A stretch of DNA of 64,000 nt. Origin: an uncultured Bacilli bacterium (GTDB taxonomy: Bacteria > Bacillota_I > Bacilli_A > RF39 > UBA660). The stretch covers positions 116,771 through 180,770 of the forward strand of contig CASTSB010000002.1 in the NCBI GenBank assembly GCA_949451605.1, read 5' to 3'. The notes under the pieces were generated by a model that was not told the origin of the DNA, did no database searches, and saw nothing but the letters and a program-made list of their open reading frames with translations. Shown here piece by piece: positions 3,396 through 64,000 of the stretch; within the stretch, counting starts at the first letter, position 1; every line of letters begins with the position of its first letter. The translations under genes were made by a program, and so were the position numbers.

Positions 3396-3457
3396 GAAAA
3401 ATATTTTTTAATATTAAAAAAAATGATATACTCAAAATAAGACAGGAGAAAAATCGG

Positions 3458-9419: not shown

Positions 9420-9490
9420 TGTATAAACTTGACTTTAATGCATAAAAAAACTATACTTAATTTATAAAATGTGTGAGGAGGGAACAGTTT

Positions 9491-48086: not shown

Positions 48087-48119
48087 ATGCACTATCGATC
48101 AGTAAAAGGGGTACGGTCT

Positions 48120-49943: not shown

Positions 49944-49998
49944 GTTTATAAGCTTATAGTCTTTTTATTATGTTATAATTCCAATAGAAGGTGAAGAT

Positions 49999-50499
49999 AT
50001 GCACATTATAAATCATATAAGCCAAATTTACTTACTGAATAATAAATATTTTGTAATAGATTATAACAATAATGAAAAATTAGTATTAAATATAAAAAAA
50101 GGTAAAGAAGAAAACACTAATAATATAAAGGCTAATAATAAAAAAGTTATTTATCAAAATGGAAATGATTACCAGGAAAGTTTTGAATTATGTGAAATAG
50201 AAAGCATTACATTAAGAAGTAACGTAGAACTTTTAAATAATACTAATCAAAAGATAATCTCTTCTCCTTACTTAATTGAGATTAAGGATACAGAAAACAA
50301 CTCTTTCTTTATCGATGCTTGTCTAAATCAGACTTATACTAGAAAAAATCATTATATTTTAAAGTTATATTGTAACTCAAATGAAGATTATATTTTTAGT
50401 TTAAATAAGAAAATAGTTCCTTTCAATATTTTAATCAAGCTAAATATTTGTAATTTAATAAGTCCACTTCTTGCGATAGATGAAGAAGATATAGTATAA
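49999..50499 (+). CDS. hypothetical protein
   Basis: 166 aa. It is followed by two hairpin terminators (atccaca..tgtggat; aagaacc..ggttctt). Confidence 0.4.
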   Translation: MHIINHISQIYLLNNKYFVIDYNNNEKLVLNIKKGKEENTNNIKANNKKVIYQNGNDYQESFELCEIESITLRSNVELLNNTNQKIISSPYLIEIKDTENNSFFIDACLNQTYTRKNHYILKLYCNSNEDYIFSLNKKIVPFNILIKLNICNLISPLLAIDEEDIV

Positions 50500-50608
50500 A
50501 GTTTTATCCACAAATCCTGTGGATATTTTATTTTAAATAATGACATTTATTATAAACAAAAAAGAACCATTAGGTTCTTTTAATCATATCTTATAATAGG
50601 TGATTTAT

Positions 50609-50887
50609 ATGAATAATTTAGTTGGAGTAATAGTAGACGCTGGACATGGTGGAAATGACCCAGGTGCTGTAGCTGGAAATTTAAAAGAAAAAGATTTAAC
50701 CTTAAAAGCATCAAAATATATGTATGACAGATTAAGAGAATTAGGAATAGATGCAGAGCTTACAAGAGATTCAGATACTTCTCTTCCAAAATCAGAAAGA
50801 ATTAAAAAAGTATTAAGTTTATACAATAATAATCCTAATGTAATTTTAGTTGCTAATCATATTAACGCAGGTGGTCAGGACACGTAA
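50609..50887 (+). pseudogene. N-acetylmuramoyl-L-alanine amidase (Amidase_3, CwlC/endolysin-like), 5' part of a gene split by element insertion
   Basis: MNNLVGVIVDAGHGGNDPGAVAGNLKEKDLTLK...VANHINAGG, then QDT-stop read from element DNA. It continues in frame at 63873. Confidence 0.7.
50869..50874. repeat. attL core (aggtgg) of the integrated element
   Basis: The same hexamer occurs at 63872-63877. Joining the two flanks restores ...HINAGG/EGAEIVY. Confidence 0.5.
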
Positions 50888-50997
50888 TATGTGATTAAAA
50901 TATGGTAGCTGTGTATAACTTAATAAGCTTCTTGTTTTACTGGAATATATAGACAAAAAAATTATATGCTGTTAAATTATAAATAGGAGTTGTTATA

Positions 50998-51210
50998 ATG
51001 AAAATAAAATGTAAACAATGTGATAGCATTATAGAAAATAAAAATATTAATAAAGAAATATGGTGCTCTTGTAAAAATATAGGCATTTTTAATGATTATA
51101 TTTTATATGGAAATAAAAATAAATTAAAGGAAAAGAGTTATGAAGATTTAACACCTAAAAAATCATTAGAAGAAGTAGTAAATGAATTAAATAAGTTAGA
51201 AAATAATTAA
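50998..51210 (+). CDS. small Cys-rich (zinc-ribbon-like) protein
   Basis: CKQCDS...CSCKN. RBS aggag upstream. Confidence 0.45.
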   Translation: MKIKCKQCDSIIENKNINKEIWCSCKNIGIFNDYILYGNKNKLKEKSYEDLTPKKSLEEVVNELNKLENN

Positions 51211-51264
51211 ATAGAAAGTTGTGGAAACACAATTTTTTTAATGCTAGAAAAGAGGAAAAAATAT

Positions 51265-51564
51265 ATGAAAATAAAATCAATAAAAAAAGAAGAAGGATAT
51301 ACAGTGATGAGTAACTATCATTTTAAAGACAGAAGGTTAAGCTTAAAAGCAAAAGGATTACTTTCATTAATGTTATCATTACCAGATAATTGGGATTTTT
51401 CAATAATGGGATTAACTAGTATTTGTATTGAAAGCAGAGATACAATCAGAAAAATTATAAATGAATTAAAGATTAATAAGTATCTTAAAGTAGTAGAAAA
51501 TAGAGATAAGAATGGAAGATTTTATTATGAGTATATAATATATGAAAAACCATACGATGATTAA
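51265..51564 (+). CDS. mobile-element-associated helix-turn-helix protein
   Basis: NYHFKDRRLSLKAKGLLSLMLSLPDNWDFSIMGL...SRDTIRKIINELKINKYL...KNGRFYYEYIIYEKP is a pattern common in Firmicutes phage/ICE regulatory and replication proteins. Confidence 0.55.
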   Translation: MKIKSIKKEEGYTVMSNYHFKDRRLSLKAKGLLSLMLSLPDNWDFSIMGLTSICIESRDTIRKIINELKINKYLKVVENRDKNGRFYYEYIIYEKPYDD

Positions 51565-51751
51565 TCCATAGTACCTTTACGGTTATATGGATTTCCGTAT
51601 TCGGTTTTACATGTAGAATAGATAATAAAAAATAAAGTAATAAAACTAATAGTTAAAGATGTTAAAGGAAAAATGAAACAAATTAATAAGAAAAAATAAA
51701 TTTATTATGAAAAAATATGATATAATTATTATGGAAGTGTAGGTGGTAAAA

Positions 51752-52627
51752 ATGAAGAAAAAACAAAATTTATTGTTACAACCAGTTTTAAAATGGGCTG
51801 GAGGGAAAAGACAATTAATTCCTCAGTTGGAAAAATTTTTTCCAAAAAAATTTACTACCTATTATGAACCTTTTATAGGTGGAGGAGCAGTATTATTCCA
51901 TTTACAACCATCAAAGGCAGTAATTAACGATTTCAACGAGGATTTAATAAATTGCTATAGGTGTATAAAAGATAATTTGGATGAACTGATAGAAAAATTA
52001 AAATATTATGAGGCAAAAAATGATTCAGAGAGTTATTATGAAATAAGAGCTATTGATAGGACTGAAGAATATAAAAGTTGGAGTCCAGTAGAACGAGCAG
52101 CAAGGTTAATATATTTAAATAGAACATGTTATAACGGTTTGTTTAGAATGAATAGTGCTGGTCAATTTAATTCTCCATTTGGGTCTTACAAAAATCCTTG
52201 TATATGTAATGAACCTGTCTTAAGAGCAATAAATAAATATTTTAATGAAAATGAAATAGAGTTTAGATCAGGAGATTTTTATGATGCATGTATTGATGCT
52301 CCAAAGGGATCATTTATATATTTAGATCCTCCTTACGATCAATATGATGAACAAGTTAATTTTGTTGGTTATACAAAAAATGGTTTTTCAAGAACTGATC
52401 AAGAGCGTTTAAAGAATATGTGTGATGAATTAATTGAGCGTGGATGCTATATTATGGTAAGCAATTCAAAAACTCCTTTTATTGTTAATTTATATAGTGA
52501 TACAACAAAATATATAACTTATACAATTAATACGGTGAATGCAAGGAGAAATATAAATAGTAATGCTCAAAAGCGTGGTGAAGTTGAGGAGGTTTTGATT
52601 ATTGGAAAATTGGATATCAAAGAATAA
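51752..52627 (+). CDS. Dam-family N6-adenine DNA methyltransferase (D12 class)
   Basis: LKWAGGKRQL, EPFIGGGAV, DPPY and NRTCYNGL motifs. ATG 51752 follows RBS aggtgg. Confidence 0.85.
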   Translation: MKKKQNLLLQPVLKWAGGKRQLIPQLEKFFPKKFTTYYEPFIGGGAVLFHLQPSKAVINDFNEDLINCYRCIKDNLDELIEKLKYYEAKNDSESYYEIRAIDRTEEYKSWSPVERAARLIYLNRTCYNGLFRMNSAGQFNSPFGSYKNPCICNEPVLRAINKYFNENEIEFRSGDFYDACIDAPKGSFIYLDPPYDQYDEQVNFVGYTKNGFSRTDQERLKNMCDELIERGCYIMVSNSKTPFIVNLYSDTTKYITYTINTVNARRNINSNAQKRGEVEEVLIIGKLDIKE

Positions 52628-53900
52628 TAAAGCATGGAATGAACTGTTTGAAAGATTTAATATTATTAATGCAATAGAAGGAAATGGTTTTTTTGAAATT
52701 ACTGCTGATCAAATTAAAGAATCAGGAAGAGAGCCAAGATTAATGACTAAGTTTGATAGCAGTGAAAATTTACCAACAATTTTTGCAGAAAATAACCTAG
52801 CAATATTGCCAATTAAACGTGGCTCATATATTATAGGAAAATTTCAAAATTATCAAACTGTTGAATTAAATAATGATTTAGATGTTGAAACTAAATATTT
52901 ACCAGATTATATTTCAACTATTGATTACAGTAATATTCCAAGTGAAGCAATATCGTTAAATTCTGCATATATCTCTGGAATGATTGAAGATATTGTTGGA
53001 GAAGAAGTTGTACCTACTATACAAGGAAGAATGGGAACTGGTGAATTCAATTATCAAATATCATTAAAAGATAATAATAAATTTGATGTAAGTGTTCAAA
53101 ATTCTCAAATGGAAATAGACGGTAGTTATGAGGGAATAAGTAAATTTGTAATATTCGAAGCAAAAAATCATTACATGAAAGATTTCATAATAAGGCAATT
53201 ATATTATCCGTATAAAGTTTGGAAAAAAGTTACGCATAAAGAAATAATTCCAATTATGTTAATTAAGCATGATAATATATTTAATTTTTTTATCTATGAA
53301 TTTTTAGATGAAAATAATTATAATAGTATAAGATTAAAGAAAATCAAAAGATATATTTTAGATGAAATATATAATCCAATCGAAGTTGTTGACATACAAA
53401 ATATTATGAATCAAGTTGAATTTGTTAAAGAAGATAATGTCCCTTTTCCACAAGCAAATTCTTTTTATAGAGTTTTAGATTTAATCAATGAATTAAATAA
53501 TCAAGAATTATCTGCAAGTGATATTGCAGACATTTATGAATTTGATATTAGACAAGCAAATTATTATTTAGCTGCTGCACAATATTTAGGCTTAGTTGTG
53601 AAAGATAAAAACTACAAATTATCTGATCATGGAAAAAGTATAATGCAAATGAACCATAAAAATAAGAATTTAGCAATTATTAGTATTATTTTATCTCACA
53701 AACCTTTTTACTGTGCACTTGAGCAATATTTAACAAATTTTGAATTTGATTATTCAGAAATAGCAAAAGTTATTTATGAAAATAGAGATGAAATCAATTC
53801 AACTGGAACGGCAGAAAGAAGAACAAGTACTGTAATTGCTTGGGTTAAATGGATTATGGAATTAACAACTGTTTTTGAAAGAAATCCTTTTGATGAATAG
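52602..53900 (+). CDS. putative restriction endonuclease partner of the Dam-family methyltransferase
   Basis: 432 aa. Overlaps the MTase 3' end by 26 nt. No motif recognised. The assignment rests on its context. Confidence 0.4.
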   Translation: MENWISKNNKAWNELFERFNIINAIEGNGFFEITADQIKESGREPRLMTKFDSSENLPTIFAENNLAILPIKRGSYIIGKFQNYQTVELNNDLDVETKYLPDYISTIDYSNIPSEAISLNSAYISGMIEDIVGEEVVPTIQGRMGTGEFNYQISLKDNNKFDVSVQNSQMEIDGSYEGISKFVIFEAKNHYMKDFIIRQLYYPYKVWKKVTHKEIIPIMLIKHDNIFNFFIYEFLDENNYNSIRLKKIKRYILDEIYNPIEVVDIQNIMNQVEFVKEDNVPFPQANSFYRVLDLINELNNQELSASDIADIYEFDIRQANYYLAAAQYLGLVVKDKNYKLSDHGKSIMQMNHKNKNLAIISIILSHKPFYCALEQYLTNFEFDYSEIAKVIYENRDEINSTGTAERRTSTVIAWVKWIMELTTVFERNPFDE

Positions 53901-54025
53901 AATATTAAATGGAGAAAGAAACTCCATTTTTATTTTAGTTCTTTATAATAATTGCAAAATATTTTAAAAATATTTTGCAATTATTATTTATTTGTGATAT
54001 TATATAGTTGATTTTGGAGGTGTCT

Positions 54026-54244
54026 ATGGAAACTATAAAACAACAAAACTTTAAAAGGATTGCTGAAAATAGAATAAATAAAATTGTTGATTTAATTTCA
54101 AAACTTCATAATCTATCAAATTCATCATTTTATGAATATACAGATGAACAAATAGATAAAATGTTTGATATTATCCAAAAAGAATTGGATAGACAAAAAG
54201 AAGAATTTAAAAAGAAAGGAAAAAATAGAAAAATAGAATTGTAG
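54026..54244 (+). CDS. small protein, first gene of the GHKL operon
   Basis: 73 aa with RBS ggaggtg upstream. Largely helical and charged. Confidence 0.45.
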   Translation: METIKQQNFKRIAENRINKIVDLISKLHNLSNSSFYEYTDEQIDKMFDIIQKELDRQKEEFKKKGKNRKIEL

Positions 54245-54254
54245 GTGTAGTAAG

Positions 54255-56183
54255 ATGTTTAATGAATTATTTTTTAAAGATAAGCCAAAATGGAAATTTA
54301 TTGAAAACAACTATGGTAATGATAACGGTCTAGACTCTACTGACATGGAAACTTTTAAAAAAGATCCTATTGCCTCATTGGCTAGGGAATCATGTCAAAA
54401 TTCAGTAGACGCGCAAAAGAGCGAAAATGCCGTTTTAATTCAGTTTAAAGTGTTTTATATGGATACAAAAGAAATTCCCGGTATAAACGATTTGATTAAT
54501 GAAATTACAGCATGTAGAAATTCAAATGTAGAGGGTAGTAGACAATATATTCAATTTAATAATATGCTTGAATATTTAAAAAATAAAAGTATTCCTTGCT
54601 TAAGAATTAGTGACTTCAATACAAAAGGATTAGAAGGAGTACGAAATAATTCAAGAGACAAGGCCTTTTATAGATTAACTAAAGGAAATGGTCAAACAAC
54701 AAAAGAAAATGGAATTAATGGTGGTTCAAAAGGTATTGGTAAATTTGCCTCATTTGTTAATAGTCAAATCCAAACTGTTTTCTATTCTACGTTAAATATG
54801 GATAACGAGAAAGGTTTTTTGGGGATTTCTAAATTAGCTTCACGACCTTTAGATAATGAACTATTGTGTACAACAGGATATGGGTACTTTTCAAGAACTG
54901 AAAAAGTTTTACCAATATTAGATGATTTAAATCTAGATAAAAACTTTATGAGAACTGAAACGGGAACAGATATATATATTTTAGGATTTAAAATTGAAGA
55001 ATCATGGAAAAAAGACATAATAACTAAAGTTTTAGATAGTTTTATGTGTGCTATACATTTTGGTAAATTAGGTGTTGAAGTAGATGATGTATTATTAACA
55101 AAAGATACATTAAAAGATATTGTTTATAATGAAAAATATATTAATGGTGTGAAAGATAAAAGAAGAATTATAAGTCAATATATTCTTTTAAATAATGATT
55201 ATGTTCACAAAAAAGAATTTAACATTAATGGATATGGAAATTTTGAAGTTTATGTTAGGGAATTTAATAGAGAAGACGAGTATTTAGCTACAAAGAAATG
55301 TTCAATGATTAGATATCCTTATATGAAAATAAAAGATTTTAATGTGGCTTGCGCAGTACCATGTTCTGCCCTATGTATAATACCAGAAAACAAATTAAAT
55401 AAAACACTTATCGATATAGAAAATCCACAGCACACTGACTGGGAATATCTTCGTTTAAATCCTGATGACAGAAAATTAATGCGAAAATTATTGAATGAAT
55501 TAGAAAGAACTATATCCGAATATGCAAATGAATGTTTATTGAATGGTAAAAATGAAGAGATAGATATGGAAGGTGCTGGGGATTTATTACCAGATTTAGA
55601 TAATTATATTGATGTTTCATTATCTAATTCGGAAGTTGAATCTAATAAGCCGCGTATAATAAGTGTTGTACAAAATAAAGTAAAAAATACTTTTGGTGAA
55701 GTAGAAGATGAAAACGCTATTTCTAATCAGCCAGATATTGGAACACATATTGATGAAGATGTTGATGATGTTTCTCCTATACCTGAAGGTCAAAATGAAC
55801 ATTCTGGAGCAGATGTACATGATTCTCAAAATGAAACAGGATATTCTTCAGACGGAAACGATGAAATAATGAAAGAAGTTTCTTTATCTGGAATTAAATC
55901 TACCATCTTTATTTTAAATAAAGAGTTAGGTAAATATGCAATTAGTTTTAATTCAATATATGATGAAAAAAATTGCGAATTAGAAATGTATTATCTTGAT
56001 GATTCTGACAATAAGTATAAAGCTTTAATAAAGTCTTGTACTATTAATGGTGAAGATGGAAAAGTAGAAAACGGAAAAATTGTAAATATGAATCTAAAAA
56101 AAGATACAATGTATAAAATAGAAGTTCATACAAATTTAAATGATATTTATGCCTGTGAGGTGAGATTATATGCGATTAGGTAA
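54255..56183 (+). CDS. GHKL-superfamily (MutL/Hsp90/MORC-like) ATPase-domain protein
   Basis: N-box-like ASLARESCQNSVDA, a G1-like DFNTKGLEG, a G2-like GINGGSKGIGKFASF. An acidic linker (aa ~440-520) and a C-terminal domain follow. Confidence 0.6.
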   Translation: MFNELFFKDKPKWKFIENNYGNDNGLDSTDMETFKKDPIASLARESCQNSVDAQKSENAVLIQFKVFYMDTKEIPGINDLINEITACRNSNVEGSRQYIQFNNMLEYLKNKSIPCLRISDFNTKGLEGVRNNSRDKAFYRLTKGNGQTTKENGINGGSKGIGKFASFVNSQIQTVFYSTLNMDNEKGFLGISKLASRPLDNELLCTTGYGYFSRTEKVLPILDDLNLDKNFMRTETGTDIYILGFKIEESWKKDIITKVLDSFMCAIHFGKLGVEVDDVLLTKDTLKDIVYNEKYINGVKDKRRIISQYILLNNDYVHKKEFNINGYGNFEVYVREFNREDEYLATKKCSMIRYPYMKIKDFNVACAVPCSALCIIPENKLNKTLIDIENPQHTDWEYLRLNPDDRKLMRKLLNELERTISEYANECLLNGKNEEIDMEGAGDLLPDLDNYIDVSLSNSEVESNKPRIISVVQNKVKNTFGEVEDENAISNQPDIGTHIDEDVDDVSPIPEGQNEHSGADVHDSQNETGYSSDGNDEIMKEVSLSGIKSTIFILNKELGKYAISFNSIYDEKNCELEMYYLDDSDNKYKALIKSCTINGEDGKVENGKIVNMNLKKDTMYKIEVHTNLNDIYACEVRLYAIR

Positions 56184-57078
56184 AAAAGTTCCACCATATC
56201 CAATTTTGAATAAATCTCTTAATATGAGCTCATACAAAAATTCAAATTTTTCTTTTAGTTATGAATTGGAAGAAACAAAGGAATTGTTTATAATTAAAAA
56301 TGCCAAAATTGAAACGGATAGTGGAGATTTGCTGAAGTATTTTAATCTTCAAAAATTAAAAGCAGTAGTGATTGTGGAATGTTCTTCTACTGTTTATAGA
56401 AATAAATTTGAAATATCTATAAATCCTGTTGATATAGAAATTCCAATAAAAGATTTAAATGATAAAGTTGAAATATCTTGTTTTGTATATGCAATAGAAG
56501 ATATTGAAAATTATTCAAGCAAAGATATGCAAGATGTTTATCAAGGATATTCTTTTATGATAGAAAAATATAGTATGTTTGCTGTTGATGATGGTATTAC
56601 GATGAAAATAGAATATGATGATAAAGAAGATAATAAAGTAGCATCGATATTTTCTGTTATAAAAAGTTTTGATCAAAATTTAAATAATATGAAAGTTGAA
56701 CTAACTGATAGAAAGATAAAAATAATATTACCAGAAAAATCTTTTGAGTATTATGATGCACTTAAAGATAAAGAACCTTTTCAAAGTATATTTTTTTCAA
56801 TACTTGTTATTCCCTCTTTAACTTATGCATTTAGTGAGATTCAAAAGCTTCCAAATGAAACAGAAATAGATGATATTGTAGATAAATATAGCTGGTTTAA
56901 ATCAATTGTAGCTAGTTACAAAAAATTATATAAAGTTGATCTAGATTATGAAACTTTTAAGCAACTTGTACCACTAGAGTTAGCACAAGGTTTAATGAAT
57001 AATTGTACTACTAGTTCATTTGATGATTTTTATAAAGCTGTTACAAATATCATTCCTAATGAAATGGAGGATGAATAA
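56170..57078 (+). CDS. hypothetical protein (GHKL operon gene 3)
   Basis: 302 aa. Overlaps the upstream gene by 14 nt. No motif recognised. Confidence 0.45.
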   Translation: MRLGKKVPPYPILNKSLNMSSYKNSNFSFSYELEETKELFIIKNAKIETDSGDLLKYFNLQKLKAVVIVECSSTVYRNKFEISINPVDIEIPIKDLNDKVEISCFVYAIEDIENYSSKDMQDVYQGYSFMIEKYSMFAVDDGITMKIEYDDKEDNKVASIFSVIKSFDQNLNNMKVELTDRKIKIILPEKSFEYYDALKDKEPFQSIFFSILVIPSLTYAFSEIQKLPNETEIDDIVDKYSWFKSIVASYKKLYKVDLDYETFKQLVPLELAQGLMNNCTTSSFDDFYKAVTNIIPNEMEDE

Positions 57079-57079
57079 T

Positions 57080-57904
57080 ATGAATAAAACTATTAATATT
57101 TCTTTTATGACAGATGAAGCATTAGAAACTTTGAGAGAAAATAGTGATAGAGTATCAGAGTATATTAAATCAAATAAACTTGATTCTAGTTGGATCCATG
57201 AACTTTATAGTGGAAAGGTATATGATTTAAAGAAGGAAAAAATAAATGACTTTGAACTAAAAACTTCCTTAAATGATAATTATAAAGAAGTAGAACTTGA
57301 TAATGCTGTAATATTATATGAATCATTAAAAGATTTGCCTAGATGTATTATTACAGATGAAAGATTTTGGGCTTGGATTAATCTAAATAAATGCTATAAA
57401 GCTACAACTCAAGCAATGCCAATTAAGTCGTCATCAACTTTTAAAAACATGTGGTTATTTACGCAAGGAAAGAGAAGAGGTATTTTCTTTGGAGCAAATT
57501 CTAGATTATATTTTTGGACAGAATTAACAGTAGATGATGAATCATTAGAGGATAAATATTTATATACAAGATTTGTATTTGAAAATCATGAGAGAATAAG
57601 ACAATTAACATGGAGATCAAATTCAAACAATAAACATATTGTATTAAATGTGGTAAAAGCTGAAAAGATGCTATATGATAAATATGCGAAGAATTCTGAA
57701 TACATGGAGGCATTTAATAAATGTGAAAGAGGTGTTGGAACTCGTAATATTTATACTGCTATTTCAAAATATTTATCATTATATGGAAGTGTAAGAGTAT
57801 TAGATGTTATATCAGATGAAGATTTGCAAAATTTCATCTATAATAAACTTGAAGAAATATTATTTGAAGTACAGAAAAATAATATGGAAATTTTTAATAT
57901 GTAA
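57080..57904 (+). CDS. hypothetical protein (GHKL operon gene 4)
   Basis: 274 aa. ATG 57080 follows RBS ggagga and sits 1 nt after the upstream stop. Confidence 0.45.
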   Translation: MNKTINISFMTDEALETLRENSDRVSEYIKSNKLDSSWIHELYSGKVYDLKKEKINDFELKTSLNDNYKEVELDNAVILYESLKDLPRCIITDERFWAWINLNKCYKATTQAMPIKSSSTFKNMWLFTQGKRRGIFFGANSRLYFWTELTVDDESLEDKYLYTRFVFENHERIRQLTWRSNSNNKHIVLNVVKAEKMLYDKYAKNSEYMEAFNKCERGVGTRNIYTAISKYLSLYGSVRVLDVISDEDLQNFIYNKLEEILFEVQKNNMEIFNM

Positions 57905-57917
57905 GGAATAATTTCTA

Positions 57918-58925
57918 ATGAATAATGATTATATAAATATAATTAATATATTTGAAGAATCAGAACGACTTCCTAATGATAAGTATTGTTTATATCCTGA
58001 AAAAAAATATTGTAGAGGGAAAATTAAACGAGCACATACAATACAAAATAATAAAATTTTGATAAGTGTTTCCGATAATGGTAATCTTATTGCGTTAAAT
58101 GGTAAATCTGCCATTGGTTTTCAAGAATCAGAAAAACAAGGAAGAGGAGTAGCAACTACTTTTTGGGGATTTTGTGATTATCATGATACAGTTGTTTTCG
58201 AACCTATTGAAAATTACAATTATGATAAATCACTAAAGCAAACATTTTTATACACGTATAGAACATTTTCATGGCACTACTATTTAAAAGAAACTCAATT
58301 AAACAAAAATAATTATATACAAAATAAAGTTAATATTAATTTGAAAAATAATGATTATTTTTTAGGAATAGTATTAGGAAGTAGTGATAATAAAAAAATA
58401 AAAGAAAAAATTGATGCTGCTATTCTAAATAAAAATTATGACATTATAAAATACTATGTGTGGGAAATTCCATTTAAAGTGAATTTTTGCTGTTGTGGGA
58501 TGGTTCAATTGTTTAAAGATTTGTTAGGCAACGATATTAATAATTATGAAGAGCTATTAGATATAAATAAACCAATGAAAAATCTTTTCATAAATATATT
58601 TCCAGAAAAAAATAAATCGTATTGTATATTTTCGTGGCTTACTGATGATTTTGAATATGATAATTTTACTATTCAATTTTCTAAATTAACATTGAAAGAT
58701 AAAATAAATTATATGAATAATATGTTGCCTAAAGAAACTGATAAAATTTTTATTAATCCGAAATTATGGAATAAATGGGGAAGTAATATTCAACAATCAT
58801 TTATAGAATGGGCTAATATAAGTATATTATGTAATGCAATGCAAGCTGAAACAAAGAAAAAAATGAAATGGAAATATTCATTTGTTCCATGGAATTTATT
58901 TGATTGTTCAGAGAAATTGAAGTAG
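57918..58925 (+). CDS. hypothetical protein (GHKL operon gene 5)
   Basis: 335 aa. Cys/His-containing N-terminal region (CRGKIKRAHTIQNN). Confidence 0.45.
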   Translation: MNNDYINIINIFEESERLPNDKYCLYPEKKYCRGKIKRAHTIQNNKILISVSDNGNLIALNGKSAIGFQESEKQGRGVATTFWGFCDYHDTVVFEPIENYNYDKSLKQTFLYTYRTFSWHYYLKETQLNKNNYIQNKVNINLKNNDYFLGIVLGSSDNKKIKEKIDAAILNKNYDIIKYYVWEIPFKVNFCCCGMVQLFKDLLGNDINNYEELLDINKPMKNLFINIFPEKNKSYCIFSWLTDDFEYDNFTIQFSKLTLKDKINYMNNMLPKETDKIFINPKLWNKWGSNIQQSFIEWANISILCNAMQAETKKKMKWKYSFVPWNLFDCSEKLK

Positions 58926-58939
58926 TAAAAGGTGATAAA

Positions 58940-60505
58940 ATGGTAATAGAGAAAATGAAAATAAAAAATTTTAAAAGATTTAAGGGAGAAGTCGAGATTA
59001 ATTATAATAGTGATTTTAATGTCATTATAGGAAACAATGAATCAGGAAAAAGTTCAATCTTACAAGCAATTGATTTAGTTTTAAGTGGAAATAAAAATAA
59101 AATAGAAAATATTGGATTAGACAATTTATTTAATACAGAAATTATAGATGAATTTATGAATAGTGATAGAGATATTTCTAAGATACCTGAAATATTTGTA
59201 GAGTTATATCTTAATGATACTGGTAATATGGATTTATCGGGGAATAACAATTCAGAAAAAAGAGAATGTGACGGTCTGGTATTAAAGATTCAAATAGATG
59301 AAGAATTTGTAAAAATAATTGATGAATCATTAAGAAAAGAAAATGCCGTTTTTCCATTTGAATATTATAAGTGTATTTTTAAGACATTTGCAGATGACTC
59401 ATACAACAATTATAAAAAGCCAGTTAAGCATATTGTCATTGACGAATCAAATTTATCAAACGATTACTACATAAAGGAATATATTTCTGATCTTTATTCT
59501 TCGTATGCAGATGAAACAACAAAAAATCTTTTTAATAACGAATTTAGAAAATTAAAAAAGGGATTTGAAGAAACAACATTAGAAGAAATGAATAAAAAAG
59601 TCCCAACTGTAAATTTTGGATTAACCAATCACAGTAAGTATTCTTTAGAAAACAATTTAACACTATATGAACAAGGAATTAATATATGGAATAAAGGTTC
59701 TGGAAGTATTTGTATGTTAAAAATTAAAACTTCTGTTGATAAACAATCAGAAAACATTGATTTAGTATTAATAGAAGAACCGGAAAATCATTTGAGTGAT
59801 ATTAATATGAAAAAAATGATAAATGATATTGTTAGCACTACTCAAAAACAAACATTTATTAGTACTCATAATAGTATGATTTGTTCAAGATTAGATTTAA
59901 GAAAAATAGTTGCTTTAAGCAATAACAAAATATCAACAACTGAATTTAGAAACATTCCAAAAGATACTGCTAATTTCTTCATTAAATGCCCATCTAATAG
60001 CATTTTAAATTTTATTCTATCTGATAAAAGCATTTTAGTAGAAGGTTCTGCTGAATATGTACTCTTCGAAAAATTTTATAAAATAATCACTGGTGTAAAT
60101 CCAAGTGAAGATAATGTTAACATTATTTCAGTAAACAATTTAGGTTTTAAAAGATATCTCGAAGTAGCAACCAATTTAAATAAAAAAGTAGTAGTTATAA
60201 CTGATAACGACAAGAATTATAAATCAAACATAACTGAAAAATACAAGGATTTTAAAAATCTGGATAATATAAGTATTTTTTCAGATGAGAATGAAGAAAG
60301 ATATACTTTTGAAGTTTGTATTTATAATGATAACATTGAATATATAAATAATCACAAATTAACAACATCCGAAAATATTTTAGAATTTATGTTAAGAGAA
60401 AAAGCAGAAGTTGCCTTTAGATTATTAGAACATCTTGAAAAAGATACAACTGGATTTAAAATTCCTTCATATATTGAGGATGCAATTAAATGGATAAGAG
60501 AATAA
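58940..60505 (+). CDS. gajA: Gabija GajA-like OLD-family ATP-dependent endonuclease (AAA_15 ATPase + TOPRIM)
   Basis: N-terminus IKNFKRFKG...INY...NVIIGNNESGKSSILQAI (OLD/AAA_15 P-loop). A Toprim-like region (LVEGSAEYVLFE) lies near the C-terminus. Confidence 0.75.
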   Translation: MVIEKMKIKNFKRFKGEVEINYNSDFNVIIGNNESGKSSILQAIDLVLSGNKNKIENIGLDNLFNTEIIDEFMNSDRDISKIPEIFVELYLNDTGNMDLSGNNNSEKRECDGLVLKIQIDEEFVKIIDESLRKENAVFPFEYYKCIFKTFADDSYNNYKKPVKHIVIDESNLSNDYYIKEYISDLYSSYADETTKNLFNNEFRKLKKGFEETTLEEMNKKVPTVNFGLTNHSKYSLENNLTLYEQGINIWNKGSGSICMLKIKTSVDKQSENIDLVLIEEPENHLSDINMKKMINDIVSTTQKQTFISTHNSMICSRLDLRKIVALSNNKISTTEFRNIPKDTANFFIKCPSNSILNFILSDKSILVEGSAEYVLFEKFYKIITGVNPSEDNVNIISVNNLGFKRYLEVATNLNKKVVVITDNDKNYKSNITEKYKDFKNLDNISIFSDENEERYTFEVCIYNDNIEYINNHKLTTSENILEFMLREKAEVAFRLLEHLEKDTTGFKIPSYIEDAIKWIRE

Positions 60506-61518
60506 TTTTAGCTAAAGCTGGTTCTGGAAAGACAACTGAAATAATTAATAGATTAGATGTTAATAATAAAAATTTAATTATAACTTATACACAAAGCAAT
60601 TATAATACTTTAAAATCTAAAATAATAAAAAAATATAAAGAAATACCCAAAAATATTAAAATATATACATATTTTTCATTTTTATATAAAGTCTGTTTTG
60701 CTCCTTTAAAAAGAAACTGGAATATTAAAGGATTATACTTTCATAAAAACAGCAACAGATTTGTCAGTTCAGAAAGTGTTGACTATTATTTGAATAAAAA
60801 CAATAGAAAAATGTATCATTATAGATTAGCGAAATTTTGTAATGAAAAAATGCTTAATGAGATTAAAAAGAGACTTGAAAAATATTTTGATTATATTTAT
60901 ATAGATGAAGTTCAGGACTTTTCAGGACATGATTTTAATTTTTTAATGAAAATTCTTGAATTTGATATTAACTTTTTACTAGTAGGTGATTTTTACCAAC
61001 ATACATATGATACAAGTCAAGATGGTAATGTTAATAAAAATCTATATAACAATTATGATAATTATTTGAAAAAGTTTAAAGATAAAAAAATCTTAATAGA
61101 TACAACTAGTTTAATAAAAAGTAGAAGATGTTCGAAAAATGTTTGCCAATTCATAAAAGATGAATTAAAAATAGATATAGAATCAGAAAAAGAAGAAGTT
61201 ACTATTATAAAAGAGCTTACAACAGAAGATGAGATAGATAAGATTATAAAAGATGATAGTATTACTAAATTGTTCTATCAAAATAATACAATTTACAAAA
61301 TAAATAATAAAAATAATTGGGGAAATTCAAAAGGTGAAACATATAAAGATGTATGTGTGGTATTGAATAAAAATAGCTATTCATTTTTCGTAAATAATAG
61401 ATTAGGAGAATTGCCACCACAGACTAAAAATAAATTATATGTTGCATGTAGTAGACCATCAGGGAATCTATATTTTATAAATGAAGAATTACTAAAACAA
61501 TATAAAAATAAAAAGTAA
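60490..61518 (+). CDS. gajB: Gabija GajB-like UvrD-family helicase (short form)
   Basis: Walker A AKAGSGKTTEI, YIDEVQDF (motif II), and C-terminal VACSRPSGNLY. Overlaps gajA by 16 nt. Confidence 0.7.
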   Translation: MDKRIILAKAGSGKTTEIINRLDVNNKNLIITYTQSNYNTLKSKIIKKYKEIPKNIKIYTYFSFLYKVCFAPLKRNWNIKGLYFHKNSNRFVSSESVDYYLNKNNRKMYHYRLAKFCNEKMLNEIKKRLEKYFDYIYIDEVQDFSGHDFNFLMKILEFDINFLLVGDFYQHTYDTSQDGNVNKNLYNNYDNYLKKFKDKKILIDTTSLIKSRRCSKNVCQFIKDELKIDIESEKEEVTIIKELTTEDEIDKIIKDDSITKLFYQNNTIYKINNKNNWGNSKGETYKDVCVVLNKNSYSFFVNNRLGELPPQTKNKLYVACSRPSGNLYFINEELLKQYKNKK

Positions 61519-61616
61519 TGAACTGTTTACTTGTTAATTTTGCTCATGCTTGCCATTTACATTCCTAAAAAAATGTGTTAAAATGATAATATAGAGGAAT
61601 TATAAAAAAGTGTATT

Positions 61617-61645
61617 TAGGGAGATAATTTATCTCTCTTTTTTTA
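61617..61645 (+). terminator. terminator-like hairpin in the recombinase upstream region
   Basis: gagataa-t-ttatctc hairpin followed by ttttttt. Confidence 0.4.
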
Positions 61646-62124
61646 TGCGCTTTTTTAATTTTTTCAGTAAAAAGGAGAGTGACTTTATGATATAAATTTT
61701 AAATAATTATTAATAAAAATTATCATTTTTTAAGAAAAAAATTCTAAACTGTCGGAGACTAATAGTGGGTTTTAGGGCATAGCCCTAACAAGGTGATGGG
61801 TGTGTAAACACCATGCTTGATATATGAAATATATATACTAGGTATGGGGTTATTTTTAAATTAGTTTGAAATATAACTAATTTTTTTTATATCTCAAATT
61901 AGTAAACTAATCTTGATAAATAAAGTCTTATAGTAGTTTTTAATTCATAAAATGAATGGAGGGGTGTATCAAATGAATATAACCGAAACTTTTGATAAAG
62001 ATAAAAACTTGGCTGACTTAATTGAGGAGTATCTAAAAAAGATGTTAGAAGTTAGTAAGCAATGATAGGAATATGATATAATAATATTGCTTATTAAAGT
62101 TATACACATTGGAAGGAGTAGTAA

Positions 62125-63765
62125 GTGTATAGCAATATAATACAAGCACCAAGTTTTTATAAAGTAGGTTTATATATTAGGTTATCTGAAAGTGACGAAG
62201 ATAAGGCTTATGAATCCGAAAGTGAAAGTATAATTAATCAAAGAAATTTACTTTTGGATTATGTGAAGTCATGTGGTTTTACTTTAGTAAAAGAGTATGT
62301 AGATGATGGATTTACTGGCACAAACTTTGATAGACCAGCTTTTCAAGAAATGATTAAAGATATTGAATCTGGTTTAATCAATTGTGTCATTACAAAAGAT
62401 TTATCAAGATTAGGTAGAGATTATATTCAATGTGGATATTATGTTGAACAATATTTCCCACAAAATAAAATAAGATATATTTCGATTCTTGATCAAGTTG
62501 ATACTTTTTTGGAAACAGCTAATAATGATATTGCTCCGTTTAAAGCATTATTTAATGATATGACAAGCAAAGATACATCTAAGAAGATTCGTTCAATTTT
62601 AAAAAATAAAAAAGAGCAAGGAAAATTTATTGGTAGTAAGCCATGTTATGGATATATGAGAGATACTCTTGATAAAGGTCATTTGATTCCTGATCCAGAA
62701 GTTGCTCCAATTGTTAAAAAGATTTTTAATATGGCATATTCTGGGATAGGTGTAAGTGATATAGTTGGTTATCTAAATGATAATCATATATTAAGTCCAA
62801 GTATGTACAAAAATACTAAATCATCTTCGAGACAAAAAGTGAATGTATGGACAATATCTTCAGTTAATAAATTATTAAAAAATAGAATGTATACTGGAGA
62901 TATGGTTCAAAATGTTCAAACTAAATTGTCGTATAAGTCTCAAAAGAAAATTGCTTTAGAAAAGGAATTCTGGATTATTGTTGAAGATACTCATGAACCT
63001 TTAGTTAGTAAAGTTATATTTGATGCAATACAAAATGCTCCATCAAGAACAAGAGTAACGCATTGTAATAGAGAAAAAAGATTATTAGAAAATTTGCTTG
63101 TTTGTAAAGAGTGTGGAAATTCTTTAAGTGTGTTATATAGAAAAAATAAAAATTATAAAGATGGAAAATATTGGAGTGTTAATTGTAATAAATATGCTAG
63201 AGATCCAAGAAGGCATTTGTGCTATCCTCATTTCTTTCCTTATGATAAATTAGAAGAAAAGATAATGGAAGCAATTAAAAATACTTGCCAAAAATATTTG
63301 AATAGTTTAAATATTAAAGAGCTATCAGAAAAAGTAATATCTTCTAGGTTAACAACTAAAAATGAAAAACTAAAGGAAAGAGAAAAACTAGTTCAAGAAA
63401 TTGAAGAATTAAAACGAAAGCTAGATTCATTATATGATGATAAATTTAGTGGCATTATTTCTGTTGAATCTTATACAAGATTATCGTCTCAAACTGAAAA
63501 GCAAATATCAGCACTAAATTTACGAGTTTATGAGATTGATAATGAAGATAAACAAATAAAAGAAGATGCAAAGGAAATAATAAAGTATGAAGATCAAATT
63601 AAATCACTTTTAAATTTGGATAATCCTAATAGAGAATTAATAAAAACTTTAGTAAAAGAAATATATATTGATAAGGATAAAAACATTGAAATCAAATATA
63701 GATTTAAGGTGCTAGATGATATTAAAATAAATTACGAAGAAATAAAAACTAAAATAGAGAGGTAA
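62125..63765 (+). CDS. large serine recombinase (integrase)
   Basis: Resolvase-type catalytic N-terminus (YIRLSESDED..S..NQ), a recombinase domain, Cys-rich zinc-ribbon (CKECGNS...C..C) and a coiled-coil C-terminus. Confidence 0.85.
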   Translation: MYSNIIQAPSFYKVGLYIRLSESDEDKAYESESESIINQRNLLLDYVKSCGFTLVKEYVDDGFTGTNFDRPAFQEMIKDIESGLINCVITKDLSRLGRDYIQCGYYVEQYFPQNKIRYISILDQVDTFLETANNDIAPFKALFNDMTSKDTSKKIRSILKNKKEQGKFIGSKPCYGYMRDTLDKGHLIPDPEVAPIVKKIFNMAYSGIGVSDIVGYLNDNHILSPSMYKNTKSSSRQKVNVWTISSVNKLLKNRMYTGDMVQNVQTKLSYKSQKKIALEKEFWIIVEDTHEPLVSKVIFDAIQNAPSRTRVTHCNREKRLLENLLVCKECGNSLSVLYRKNKNYKDGKYWSVNCNKYARDPRRHLCYPHFFPYDKLEEKIMEAIKNTCQKYLNSLNIKELSEKVISSRLTTKNEKLKEREKLVQEIEELKRKLDSLYDDKFSGIISVESYTRLSSQTEKQISALNLRVYEIDNEDKQIKEDAKEIIKYEDQIKSLLNLDNPNRELIKTLVKEIYIDKDKNIEIKYRFKVLDDIKINYEEIKTKIER

Positions 63766-63871
63766 AATTATTAATCACACAATTTTACCTTCCTCTATAC
63801 AAATTTTTGAAAAAATAAATTACAGTAAAATCAAGGAAAAAATCGTACCTAATCACATATTTTCCTTCCAG

Positions 63872-63877
63872 AGGTGG
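63872..63877. repeat. attR core (aggtgg)
   Basis: Matches the hexamer at 50869-50874. Confidence 0.5.
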
Positions 63878-64000
63878 AGAAGGTGCAGAAATAGTATATG
63901 CACTTCGAAATAACTCAACTCTAGCAGATATGGCTCTATCTAATATTGAAGATGCAGGGCAAATATCTAGAGGCACATATCAAAGAGTATTACCAGAAGA
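63873..64000 (+). CDS. amidase gene, 3' continuation (partial, runs beyond window)
   Basis: GGEGAEIVYALRNNSTLADMALSNIEDAGQISRGTYQRVLPE is in frame and resumes the Amidase_3 domain directly after ...HINAGG. Confidence 0.6.

What the first reader, a model, noticed from the sequence alone, without database searches (positions are those of the whole stretch)
50609..64000. Amidase_3 (CwlC/endolysin-like) gene split by a 13-kb serine-recombinase element; in-frame halves and aggtgg att core
The amidase ORF reads normally up to ...VANHINAGG at 50874, then hits QDT-stop. At 63873 the reading frame resumes GGEGAEIVYALRNNST..., which is exactly the expected continuation of the Amidase_3 fold (CwlC has ...HVNSGGGTGFESYIY). 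Both junctions share the hexamer aggtgg, and deleting 50875-63871 restores an uninterrupted gene. The recombinase gene ends 107 bp from attR. This is the architecture of the sporulation intervening (skin-like) elements of Bacilli and Clostridia, which split sigK, spoVFB, gerE, spsM and similar genes. Those elements are excised by a large serine recombinase in the mother cell. Here the interrupted gene resembles the mother-cell lysis amidase CwlC (cytoplasmic, no signal peptide), and the genome also encodes Spo0A. The element would then be a regulated, excisable defense island.
Basis: partly seen in the sequence, partly recalled or inferred. Interest (0 to 1): 0.75.

Follow-up and report, generated by a model that had tools for sequence, protein, structure and literature searches.

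The report
Mobile defence cassette splits amidase gene
A 13,000-bp mobile DNA cassette carrying three anti-phage systems sits exactly inside a cell-wall amidase gene that looks like a late sporulation (mother-cell) gene, and precise removal by the cassette's own serine recombinase would rebuild the gene, as in the known 'skin'-type elements of spore-formers, here with a new target gene in uncultured gut bacteria.

Summary
An Amidase_3–LysM gene is cut after ...HINAGG by an element of exactly 13,000 bp (window 50875-63874). The element ends with a large serine recombinase (LSR, 62125-63765). It carries a type II restriction-modification system, PDC-M33 and Gabija, and no phage genes.

The boundaries are fixed independently. 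The same element, 99.96% identical, sits at the same codon of a different species' amidase (L117). A related strain has the uninterrupted 412-aa gene in the same neighbourhood (L114).

The true crossover is a GG dinucleotide (50873-74 / 63873-74), not the 'aggtgg' hexamer. With this register attP is perfectly symmetric and excision restores HINAGGGEGAE.

The site is used recurrently. At least 17 database proteins are truncated at the same residue, and 10 further attR junctions have open C-terminal halves. LSR relatives carry different defence cargo.

The amidase family has no signal peptide. It carries a conserved sigma-K-type promoter motif (AC-N16-CATAnnnTA), shared with neighbouring CwlJ-like genes. 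A conserved 30-aa ORF precedes the LSR and is a candidate directionality factor.

Mother-cell-timed excision is plausible (about 0.55) but untested. This is a new member of the known class of sporulation gene-intervening elements, closest to gin in gerE.

The parts
50566..50593 (+). Sigma-K-type promoter-like motif of the amidase gene: (A)CC at 50566-68, a 16-nt spacer, then CATATCTTA at 50585-93. It lies directly before the ribosome-binding site AGGTGA.
   Evidence: CATAnnnTA is at the same position in 13 of 19 orthologous upstreams, against 8 of 412 other ORFs (Fisher p = 2e-15). C is found at -17 in 12 of 14. This is a motif only; no transcript data.
50609..50874 (+). 5' half of the Amidase_3-LysM gene (codons 1-88 plus GG of codon 89). 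In the integrated state the ORF runs on to a stop at 50885-87 (tail QDT).
   Evidence: Pfam Amidase_3. 98.9% identical to residues 1-89 of the intact 412-aa P0310. The exact 92-aa product is on record in 8 contigs.
50850..50897 (.). attL: host arm B (...GCTAATCATATTAACGCAGGT), crossover GG at 50873-74, and element arm P' (TCAGGACACGT, then the 12-mer AATATGTGATTA at 50886-97).
   Evidence: The switch from about 74% to more than 99% identity falls exactly here against L097/L098 and L117.
50875..63874 (+). The integrated element, exactly 13,000 bp, with all genes on the + strand.
   Evidence: L117 carries the same 13,000 bp at 99.962% identity with 0 gaps in a different host amidase. Removing it restores HINAGGGEGAE.
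50998..51210 (+). DUF7695 small zinc-ribbon-like protein (70 aa), part of the left-end module.
   Evidence: Pfam PF24749. Conserved at the left end in L097, L098, L117 and L120.
51241..51564 (+). HTH_36 DNA-binding protein (107 aa). It resembles only the N-terminal DNA-binding part of phage replication initiators and DnaD-like loaders.
   Evidence: Pfam PF13730. PHROG 4707, 428 and 186, N-terminal part only.
51743..53900 (+). Type II restriction-modification system: D12-class N6-adenine methyltransferase (51743-52627) and restriction enzyme (52602-53900; DUF6996/6997/7226).
   Evidence: Pfam. PADLOC MTase_II 1.4e-97 and REase_II 1.5e-88.
54255..57904 (+). PDC-M33 candidate defence system: A (54255-56183), B (56170-57078) and C (57020-57904, DUF6339). 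A 78-aa ORF at 54008-54244 precedes it.
   Evidence: PADLOC PDC-M33A 3.4e-136, M33B 2.1e-61, M33C 3e-32.
57918..58925 (+). 335-aa ORF of unknown function. It is conserved next to Gabija in L090 and L117.
   Evidence: No Pfam, PADLOC, NCBIfam or PHROG match. Present in L090 and L117.
58904..61518 (+). Gabija defence system: GajA (OLD-type ATPase plus TOPRIM, 58904-60505) and GajB (UvrD-like helicase, 60490-61518).
   Evidence: PADLOC GajA 2.9e-109 and GajB 4.4e-51. Pfam AAA_15 and OLD-like_TOPRIM.
61946..62065 (+). Conserved block CATAAAATG (61946-54), a ribosome-binding site, and a 30-aa ORF (61973-62065, MNITETFDKDKNLADLIEEYLKKMLEVSKQ). The ORF is a candidate recombination directionality factor.
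   Evidence: The ORF is kept upstream of LSRs of 81-99% identity, with mostly synonymous changes. Homologous small ORFs precede LSRs of 40-58% identity in L021, L022 and L001. Function not tested.
62125..63765 (+). Large serine recombinase, 546 aa (Resolvase, Recombinase and Zn_ribbon_recom domains).
   Evidence: Pfam. PHROG 95 integrase 9e-97. Nearest solved relative is the TnpX catalytic domain, 1.4e-29. More than 120 clusters at 80% identity or above.
63850..63900 (.). attR: element arm P (12-mer TAATCACATATT at 63850-61, then TTCCTTCCAGA), crossover GG at 63873-74, and host arm B' (TGGAGAAGGTGCAGAA...).
   Evidence: Identity with L093-96, L090 and L117 ends here. The base after GG is host-specific: T, A or C.
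63875..64000 (+). 3' half of the amidase gene. It resumes at the third base of Gly codon 89, then GEGAEIVYALRNNST..., and runs off the end of the window. By homology about 320 more codons follow, including LysM repeats.
   Evidence: Full C-terminal halves are open in L117 (566 codons) and in 7 metagenome loci.

Best explanation
**What it is.** This is a 13,000-bp integrative cassette that is not a phage. It belongs to a large family of LSR-driven elements in uncultured, Spo0A-encoding gut Bacilli.

**Integration.** The LSR recombines a symmetric attP (TAATCACATATT-N11-GG-N11-AATATGTGATTA) with an attB inside the DNA that encodes the invariant NHINAGG|GEGAE motif of a chromosomal Amidase_3-LysM gene. 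The crossover is the GG of the second glycine codon. Integration separates the three zinc-ligand residues (in the N-terminal half) from the catalytic glutamate and the LysM wall-binding repeats (in the C-terminal half), so the gene is off.

**Cargo.** In growing cells the cassette supplies a type II restriction-modification system, PDC-M33 and Gabija.

**Target gene (inferred).** The amidase has no signal peptide and is preceded by a conserved sigma-K-type promoter. I therefore read it as a late mother-cell gene, a functional analogue of the mother-cell lysis amidase CwlC.

**Proposed mechanism.** During sporulation the small ORF-LSR operon is expressed in the mother cell. The 30-aa protein acts as, or contributes to, a directionality factor. 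The element is excised precisely as a circle, and the 412-aa-type amidase is rebuilt only in the terminal mother cell. The forespore keeps the cassette.

**Shown in silico:** the boundaries, the site specificity, the recurrence, recent horizontal transfer, the existence of empty sites, in-frame restoration, and the defence cargo.

**Inferred:** sigma-K dependence of the amidase, its role in the mother cell, the timing of excision, and the directionality-factor role of the 30-aa ORF.
For: **Structure of the split**
- establish the two halves and their fit to one Amidase_3 domain.
- L117 has the identical 13,000-bp element (99.962%) in another species' amidase, with 74%-identical flanks.
- Left and right boundary switches are seen in L097/98, L090 and L093.
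- Intact 412-aa alleles are found in the same 90% cluster and in the same gene neighbourhood.

**Recurrence**
- 17 proteins are truncated right after HIN[AS]GG, each with a different tail.
- 6 of 14 close loci in species-representative genomes are split there.
- 10 of 11 P-arm hits in metagenomes are attR junctions followed by open C-terminal halves from 8 different alleles.
- C-terminal halves of split genes are as conserved as those of intact genes.

**Cargo and element type**
- PADLOC identifies the three defence systems.
- PHROGs finds no phage structural genes.
- Close LSR relatives carry other defence genes.

**Link to sporulation**
- Spo0A and SpoIID are in the window.
- Intact proteins start directly with the catalytic domain, with no signal peptide.
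- AC-N16-CATAnnnTA lies about 24 nt before the start codon in 13 of 19 orthologues, against 2% of other ORFs (p = 2e-15). C is at -17 in 12 of 14.
- The same motif precedes CwlJ-like (Hydrolase_2) and CwlD-like genes.
- A second LSR lineage (40% identity) splits the same gene at another site.
- The small ORF before the LSR is conserved, with an invariant CATAAAAT block upstream.

**Precedent:** every tested LSR element in a mother-cell gene is excised during sporulation (PMC5595907, PMC4191935, PMC5025042, PMC10747680).
Against: - No excised circle or repaired junction from the same strain was found. The exact attP junction gave 0 hits in JGI metagenomes.
- The promoter assignment rests on a motif only. 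The motif sits unusually close to the ribosome-binding site, which implies a very short leader. Its last bases also overlap a TAnnnT hexamer.
- No convincing -35 element could be assigned to the small ORF-LSR operon.
- At 30 aa, the small protein is shorter than the directionality factors cited for other sporulation elements (53 and 72 aa, PMC10747680).
- The near-identity of the element in two species shows that insertions can be very recent. Intact halves therefore do not by themselves prove selection in the split state. The only unsaturated pair of split alleles (pN 0.008, pS 0.147) carries different LSR variants, so the two insertions may be independent.
- Some genomes hold a second intact paralogue (L012 alongside L020; L093), so the split copy could be dispensable.
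- Sporulation of these uncultured bacteria has not been demonstrated.
Confidence: 0.55

Rival explanations
1. Safe-harbour model. The cassette is a horizontally mobile defence island that uses the conserved amidase motif only as a widely available docking site. The amidase is redundant or dispensable, it stays off in carriers, and excision happens only sporadically for transfer, not as a developmental switch.
For: - The element is 99.96% identical in two species, so there was very recent transfer.
- Within one 90% cluster there are at least four different element ends plus intact alleles, which indicates rapid turnover.
- Paralogues or adjacent intact amidase genes exist in some carriers.
- One MAG has the attB region deleted and the gene frameshifted (L018).
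- No attP junction was found.
Against: - The target family carries a conserved mother-cell-type promoter motif.
- Two unrelated LSR lineages chose the same gene at different sites.
- No split C-terminal half of 9 alleles has a stop or frameshift over 250-566 codons.
- The -10-like block before the small ORF-LSR operon is conserved.
- All tested precedents are developmentally excised (papers cited above).
Confidence: 0.38
2. Prophage model. The amidase is the endolysin of a (defective) prophage, and the 13-kb element is a phage moron or a second phage inserted into it.
For: The Amidase_3 domain without a signal peptide resembles phage endolysins. The best phage hits are endolysins at up to 41% identity.
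Against: - The gene sits in a conserved chromosomal neighbourhood (EssC-like, SpoIID, phospholipase C-like, Abi_2, HtrA, CorA) across many species, with no phage genes.
- No holin or structural genes are nearby.
- PHROGs finds only the integrase and an HTH domain in the element.
- An LSR search of viral contigs found only one relative, at 24% identity.
Confidence: 0.03
3. Artefact model. The two amidase fragments are unrelated genes or an assembly chimera, and the shared hexamer is chance.
For: A 6-bp repeat alone is not significant in AT-rich DNA.
Against: - The alignment to intact proteins is continuous.
- The same junctions appear in independent assemblies from ENA, Logan, JGI and NCBI.
Confidence: 0.01

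Closest known systems
gin element in gerE of Bacillus cereus ATCC 10987 (Abe et al. 2017, PMC5595907)
   Same: A non-phage element that interrupts the coding sequence of a mother-cell sporulation gene. It carries restriction-modification genes and serine recombinase(s), and is excised with the help of a small extra factor (GirX).
   Different: The target gene differs (an amidase instead of gerE). This element is 13 kb with one LSR, against 28.6 kb with three. Its cargo is three defence systems. It belongs to a very large, horizontally mobile family in uncultured gut Bacilli. Excision has not been shown here.
skin elements in sigK (B. subtilis SpoIVCA/Skr; C. difficile CD1231/CD1234, PMC5025042) and SPbeta in spsM (SprA/SprB, PMC4191935, PMC5499854)
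   Same: An LSR-bounded element splits a late mother-cell gene. Precise excision restores the reading frame. Directionality is given by a small factor under the control of sporulation sigma factors. SPbeta, like this element, is still mobile.
   Different: Those are prophages or prophage remnants, and this one has no phage genes. The LSR here is only distantly related; its best NCBIfam hits are XisF and CcrB, far below their cut-offs. The candidate factor is only 30 aa.
yin element in yabG of Clostridium botulinum (PMC10747680)
   Same: An intervening element in a sigma-K-regulon gene. It is polymorphic between close strains, and its attB is conserved in strains with an empty site.
   Different: yin is prophage-like and unique to one strain. 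This family is found in many species, with many cargo variants.
CwlC, the mother-cell lysis amidase of B. subtilis (own knowledge; not tested against its sequence here)
   Same: An N-terminal Amidase_3 domain, no signal peptide, C-terminal wall-binding repeats, and a sigma-K-type promoter.
   Different: The wall-binding repeats here are LysM (3-7 copies), not the CwlC-type repeats. It matches no NCBIfam equivalog; the best hit is CwlD at 66 bits against a cut-off of 221. Orthology is not claimed.
Tn4451/Tn4453 (TnpX) and SCCmec (CcrAB) cassettes
   Same: Small LSR-mobilised cassettes without their own conjugation or packaging genes, which excise as circles. TnpX is the nearest solved relative of the catalytic domain, and CcrB is an NCBIfam hit.
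   Different: No Mob or relaxase gene was found. The insertion is strictly site-specific and lies inside a coding sequence. The cargo is anti-phage defence, not antibiotic resistance.

Membership tests
Large serine recombinase (LSR) integrative element | Recombinase with a Resolvase catalytic domain, a Recombinase domain and a zinc-ribbon/coiled-coil domain | tested here: met
   Pfam PF00239, PF07508 and PF13408 in order. PHROG 95 integrase, 9e-97.
Large serine recombinase (LSR) integrative element | attP of about 50 bp with inverted half-sites around a 2-bp crossover, and attL/attR as B-P' and P-B' hybrids with no target duplication beyond the core | tested here: met
   The reconstructed attP is a 12-mer, 11 nt, GG, 11 nt and the inverted 12-mer. 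The hybrid structure is shown by comparison with L097, L090, L113, L117 and the empty site in L114.
Large serine recombinase (LSR) integrative element | Recombinase-catalysed integration and excision | not testable with these tools
   Needs an in vitro or in vivo assay. Indirect support: the identical element sits at the homologous site in two species.
Sporulation gene-intervening (skin-like) elements | Interrupts the coding sequence of a sporulation gene expressed in the mother cell | tested here: inconclusive
   The interruption of a coding sequence is shown. The mother-cell character of the gene is inferred from a conserved AC-N16-CATAnnnTA motif, the absence of a signal peptide and sharing of the motif with CwlJ-like and CwlD-like genes. 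There are no expression data.
Sporulation gene-intervening (skin-like) elements | Precise excision restores an intact, functional reading frame | tested here: met
   In silico: removing 50875-63874 gives HINAGGGEGAE, collinear with the intact 412-aa alleles. The function of the product was not tested.
Sporulation gene-intervening (skin-like) elements | Excision is specific to sporulation and the mother cell | not testable with these tools
   No culture or time-course data. The attP junction search in metagenome contigs found nothing.
Sporulation gene-intervening (skin-like) elements | A recombination directionality factor is encoded in the element and controlled by a sporulation sigma factor | tested here: inconclusive
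   There is a conserved 30-aa ORF with an upstream CATAAAAT block. It matches no family and no -35 element could be assigned.
Sporulation gene-intervening (skin-like) elements | The host is an endospore former | tested here: inconclusive
   Spo0A (8219-8989) and SpoIID are in the window, and CwlJ-like and CwlD-like genes are in relatives. sigE and sigK were not examined. The organism is uncultured ('Bacilli bacterium').
CwlC-type mother-cell lysis amidase | Amidase_3 catalytic domain at the N-terminus without a signal peptide | tested here: met
   Pfam. Intact proteins start MNN..VIVDAGHGG.
CwlC-type mother-cell lysis amidase | CwlC-type C-terminal repeats, or orthology to CwlC | tested here: not met
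   The C-terminus consists of LysM repeats. It matches no NCBIfam equivalog. It is an analogue, not a member.
Gabija defence system | Adjacent GajA (ATPase plus TOPRIM) and GajB (UvrD-like helicase) genes | tested here: met
   PADLOC GajA 2.9e-109 over the full length, GajB 4.4e-51; the genes overlap by 16 nt.
Type II restriction-modification system | Adjacent methyltransferase and restriction endonuclease genes | tested here: met
   PF02086 at 1e-64; PADLOC MTase_II 1.4e-97 and REase_II 1.5e-88. Enzyme activity not tested.
Prophage or defective prophage | Phage structural, packaging or lysis genes within the element | tested here: not met
   PHROGs matches only the integrase and an HTH/replication-initiator-like domain. 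Cargo genes of 8 related elements have no such Pfam families.

The most novel reading that the evidence does not exclude
A very large family of horizontally mobile defence cassettes in gut spore-formers has specialised on a gene needed only in the terminal mother cell, a sigma-K-driven lysis amidase. Carrying the cassette would then cost the germ line nothing. Excision is timed by a conserved 30-aa microprotein that acts as the smallest known directionality factor for a large serine recombinase. Two independent recombinase lineages have converged on the same gene at different sites.
Probability: 0.3. Interest if true: 0.8.

Novelty: new member of a known kind. Interest (0 to 1): 0.6.

Why it matters
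- **New target gene.** It would add a mother-cell cell-wall amidase to the short list of sporulation genes known to be split by excisable elements (sigK, spsM, spoVFB, gerE, yabG and others). It would also extend the phenomenon to abundant, uncultured gut Bacilli.
- **Anti-phage defence linked to development.** The interchangeable cargo consists of defence systems. This connects the spread of anti-phage immunity with developmental gene rearrangement.
- **A precisely defined recombinase system.** The attP and attB sites are defined to the base, there are many natural attB variants, and there is a candidate 30-aa cofactor. This is directly usable for recombinase biochemistry and genome engineering.
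- **An open question about transfer.** A 13-kb cassette with no visible transfer genes is 99.96% identical in two species whose flanks are only 74% identical, so its route of transfer is unexplained.

Tried and rejected
- **Excised circle.** An exact search for the reconstructed attP junction in JGI metagenome contigs gave 0 hits. There is therefore no direct evidence of the excised circle.
- **RNA elements.** Rfam scans of the whole window, and a permissive scan of the 600-nt region before the LSR, found nothing. The GC-richer hairpins at 61750-61820 remain unassigned.
- **LSR in viral contigs.** The search found only one relative, at 24% identity, so a phage origin is not supported.
- **Selection on the halves.** Comparison of non-synonymous and synonymous differences (pN and pS) between C-terminal halves is mostly saturated (pS about 0.6). 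It shows only that split and intact alleles are equally constrained. The first attempt timed out.
- **The window's own C-terminal half.** An exact look-up of the window's LSR found no record. This half could therefore not be read beyond base 64000. It is inferred from P0307/P0310 and from L117.
- **Promoter of the small ORF-LSR operon.** I tried to assign a sigma-A or sigma-E -35 element and found no convincing match (reading).
- **Crossover register.** I first took 'aggtgg' in register, with GG at 50870-71. I rejected this because it leaves two glycines and an asymmetric attP.
- **Rejected readings.** CwlD identity, prophage endolysin and two unrelated genes.

Full report
**1. Observation**

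The ORF that starts at ATG 50609 reads MNNLVGVIVDAGHGG...VANHINAGG. It then runs into QDT-stop (stop codon 50885-87). From 63873 the frame GGEGAEIVYALRNNST... is open to the end of the window.

A 546-aa protein with Resolvase, Recombinase and Zn_ribbon_recom domains is encoded at 62125-63765. Its gene ends 107 nt before the right junction.

The two halves belong to one gene:
- Joined, they match Pfam Amidase_3 positions 1-126 of 174 as a single stretch.
- They align without a gap across the junction to intact homologues.
- They map to residues 1-89 (98.9% identity) and about 90-130 of an intact 412-aa protein.

The described observation is therefore real.

**2. Exact boundaries and crossover**

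Three independent comparisons fix the ends.

*Left end.* L097 and L098 share the left end of the element. Identity to the window switches from about 74% to near 100% at GGTGG 50870-74.

*Right end.* Loci with LSRs of 97-99% identity share the right end. Identity stops within GGTG 63873-76.

*Whole element.* L117 contains the whole element. 13,000 of 13,000 bases align at 99.962% with no gap. Its left flank is only 74% identical and encodes a clearly different amidase.

The base that follows GG in attR is host-specific: T in the window, A in L090 and C in L113. The codon before GG in attL is also host-specific: GGT in the window and GGA in L117.

The crossover is therefore the GG at 50873-74 and 63873-74, which are positions 1-2 of the second glycine codon. 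With this register:
- attP is perfectly symmetric: TAATCACATATT, 11 nt, GG, 11 nt, AATATGTGATTA.
- Excision of 50875-63874 gives HINAGGGEGAE, the sequence of every intact homologue and of the empty site in L114.

The stated deletion gives four glycines. An in-register hexamer gives two glycines and an asymmetric attP.

The host arm also carries TAATCATATT, encoded by the residues A-N-H-I-N. It lies about four bases closer to the core than the matching 12-mer in attP. By my own knowledge of LSR structures, this offset is what is expected between attB and attP half-sites. That last point is a reading, not a test.

**3. What the element carries**

All genes are on the + strand:
- a DUF7695 protein;
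- a 107-aa HTH_36 protein that resembles only the DNA-binding end of phage replication initiators;
- a D12 adenine methyltransferase with a type II restriction enzyme;
- the three-gene candidate system PDC-M33;
- a 335-aa protein of unknown function;
- Gabija (GajA and GajB);
- a 30-aa ORF;
- the LSR.

PHROGs finds no structural, packaging or lysis genes. No relaxase was seen.

The catalytic domain of the LSR is nearest to TnpX of Tn4451 among solved structures. Phage integrases reach at most 36% identity.

**4. Recurrence and mobility**

*The split point recurs.*
- Seventeen database proteins of 91-111 aa are N-terminal halves that end right after HIN[AS]GG, each with a different short tail.
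- Among the close relatives in species-representative genomes, six are split there, seven are intact and one has the site deleted.
- A search for the P arm in JGI metagenomes gave 11 hits. Ten are attR junctions followed in frame by C-terminal halves from eight different alleles. All of these are open through the LysM repeats wherever the contig allows (250-369 codons). L117's C-terminal half is open for 566 codons.

*The LSR family is large and its cargo varies.* The LSR has more than 120 clusters at 80% identity or above. Relatives carry other cargo:
- Eco57I-like enzymes;
- MutH-type and NgoPII restriction systems;
- an nSTAND NTPase;
- SNF2, ParB and PIN proteins;
- TIR proteins nearby.

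The family is thus a conserved recombination module with interchangeable defence cargo.

*The site is polymorphic within one cluster.* Within the 90% identity cluster of the window's own N-terminal half there are two intact 412-aa alleles and three further split variants with different tails. L114-L116 show the intact gene in the same neighbourhood: SpoIID, a phospholipase C-like gene, Abi_2, HtrA, CorA, and genes of 607 and 167 aa. These flanks are 84-89% identical to the window.

Uninterrupted alleles therefore exist, and the element is recently and horizontally mobile.

**5. What the target gene is**

Intact genes encode Amidase_3 followed by 3-7 LysM repeats, 336-510 aa in total. They start directly with the catalytic domain and have no signal peptide.

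The gene is chromosomal and syntenic across species. It is not in a prophage.

It is not CwlD (66 bits against a cut-off of 221). It is at most 41% identical to phage endolysins.

By my own knowledge of Amidase_3 enzymes, the N-terminal half holds the three zinc ligands (the H of DAGHGG, the E of EKD and the H of NHIN). The catalytic glutamate (EYGF) lies in the C-terminal half. On that reading neither fragment should be active.

**6. Link to sporulation**

The window encodes Spo0A (8219-8989) and a SpoIID-like protein.

*Promoter motif on the amidase family.*
- In 13 of 19 distinct orthologous upstream regions, CATAnnnTA lies about 24 nt before the start codon. Most of the rest are near-matches.
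- Among 412 other ORF upstream regions from the same loci, the motif occurs in 8 (Fisher p = 2e-15).
- Seventeen bases upstream of the motif there is a C in 12 of 14 sequences, usually preceded by A.
- AC, a 16-17-nt spacer and CATAnnnTA is the sigma-K promoter consensus of Bacillus (own knowledge).

*The motif marks other sporulation-type wall hydrolases.* It stands at the same position before 140-142-aa Hydrolase_2 (CwlJ/SleB-type) genes, two of which lie directly next to the amidase. It also precedes a CwlD-like Amidase_3 gene.

*Caveats.* The motif lies only 3-5 nt from the ribosome-binding site, so the leader would be very short. Its last bases also form TAnnnT. No transcript data exist.

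*A second recombinase lineage hits the same gene.* An LSR only 40% identical interrupts the gene at the start of the first LysM repeat (L001). Many database proteins end with the corresponding tail, GDTIFMGNNE. Convergence of two recombinase lineages on one gene is what is seen for sigK.

**7. Candidate directionality factor**

The 30-aa ORF at 61973-62065 is called as a gene in independent assemblies.

It is conserved before LSRs of 81-99% identity. In its first 22 codons there are about eight synonymous changes against two or three replacements.

Homologous small ORFs stand before LSRs of 53-58% identity (L021, L022) and 40% identity (L001).

An invariant CATAAAAT(G) block and a ribosome-binding site precede it, in the same layout as at the amidase gene. 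No -35 element could be assigned.

The protein matches no family. Its role is a hypothesis.

**8. Interpretation**

*Certain in silico.* This is an LSR cassette with defence cargo. It is inserted site-specifically in the catalytic-motif codons of an Amidase_3-LysM gene. It is reversible in principle, widespread, and recently transferred between species.

*Likely (about 0.55).* The gene is a late mother-cell gene and the cassette is excised in the mother cell, as with skin, SPbeta, vfbin, gin and yin (PMC5595907, PMC4191935, PMC5025042, PMC10747680).

*Main rival (about 0.38).* The gene is merely a tolerated docking site and there is no developmental excision. In its favour: insertions are recent, some carriers have an intact paralogue, one genome has the site deleted, and no attP junction was found.

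*Excluded.* Prophage endolysin and artefact readings are excluded.

**9. Novelty**

None of four full-text searches, nor the two reference papers I searched directly, turned up an amidase among the sporulation genes known to be split by such elements.

The closest precedent is gin in gerE, which is non-phage, carries restriction-modification cargo, and uses an LSR plus a small factor.

This is a new member of that kind, with a new target and a defence-cassette family of unusual breadth.

Noticed in passing
L001 10600-10660 and 20180-20260 (also the tails of P0001, P0008, P0012, P0018, P0051 and P0067): There is a second split site in the same amidase gene. The ORF ends ...YTVQRGDT|IFMGNNE*. 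An element of about 9.5 kb follows (CmpB-like, TetR, MMPL, a 59-aa ORF, an LSR only 40% identical, and Bro-N). The LysM part then resumes with its own ribosome-binding site and GTG start (GAGGTGAAATTGTG), which mimics the amidase start region. In that state the catalytic domain and the LysM repeats could be made as two separate proteins.
   Followed up: partly
L093-L096, about 11731-11840: An LSR 97% identical to the window's, with the same P arm, is followed after GG by non-amidase DNA (TGCGGATAATGTGTG...). Seventy-five bp further on lies a complete, intact 336-aa Amidase_3-LysM gene. This could be a secondary site, a rearranged attR or a tandem arrangement. The left end was out of reach.
   Followed up: partly
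L018 10205-10225: In one MAG the amidase has a deletion of about 31-34 nt that removes exactly the codons for ILISNHINAGGG (the B arm plus the core) and shifts the frame. This could be a scar of imprecise excision, an 'immunising' deletion or an assembly error.
   Followed up: partly
window 48087-50499, and the equivalent slot in L001, L097 and L114: The stretch between CorA/HtrA and the amidase start is itself variable between relatives. The window has ORFs of 618 and 166 aa with no family. L114 has MazG-like and SLFN-type helicase genes. L097 has a type III restriction-modification system. L001 has metabolic genes. This is a second variable, defence-prone slot directly upstream of the docking gene.
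   Followed up: partly
L013 11244-11663 (-), L014 11258-11677 (-), L099 16624-17052 (-), L108 2009-2428 (+), L109 6010-6435 (-): CwlJ/SleB-type Hydrolase_2 genes of 140-142 aa, without a signal peptide, lie next to or near the amidase gene. They carry the same CATAnnnTA motif at the same distance from the ribosome-binding site. This suggests a small co-regulated set of sporulation wall hydrolases.
   Followed up: yes
window 61740-61830: A GC-richer segment with two hairpin-like inverted repeats (tagggcatagcccta and ggtgtgtaaacacc) lies between Gabija and the small ORF. It is conserved in L090 and L093 but absent from L099 and L100. It has no Rfam match.
   Followed up: partly
window 44705-45652: An Abi_2 (abortive-infection-like) gene is a conserved, syntenic neighbour of HtrA in all relatives. 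It is not variable cargo, which is unusual for an Abi-type gene.
   Followed up: no
window 9473-10768: A DUF4143/AAA_14 ATPase gene lies just downstream of spo0A, ahead of the phosphoglycerate mutase gene at 10782. It was not examined further.
   Followed up: no
L107, about 3300-3550: A C-terminal half identical to that of L103 and L108 diverges after the second LysM repeat into an unrelated sequence (…NNLIQISPNGIISLTDEGYQ…). This is a probable assembly chimera or a local rearrangement.
   Followed up: no
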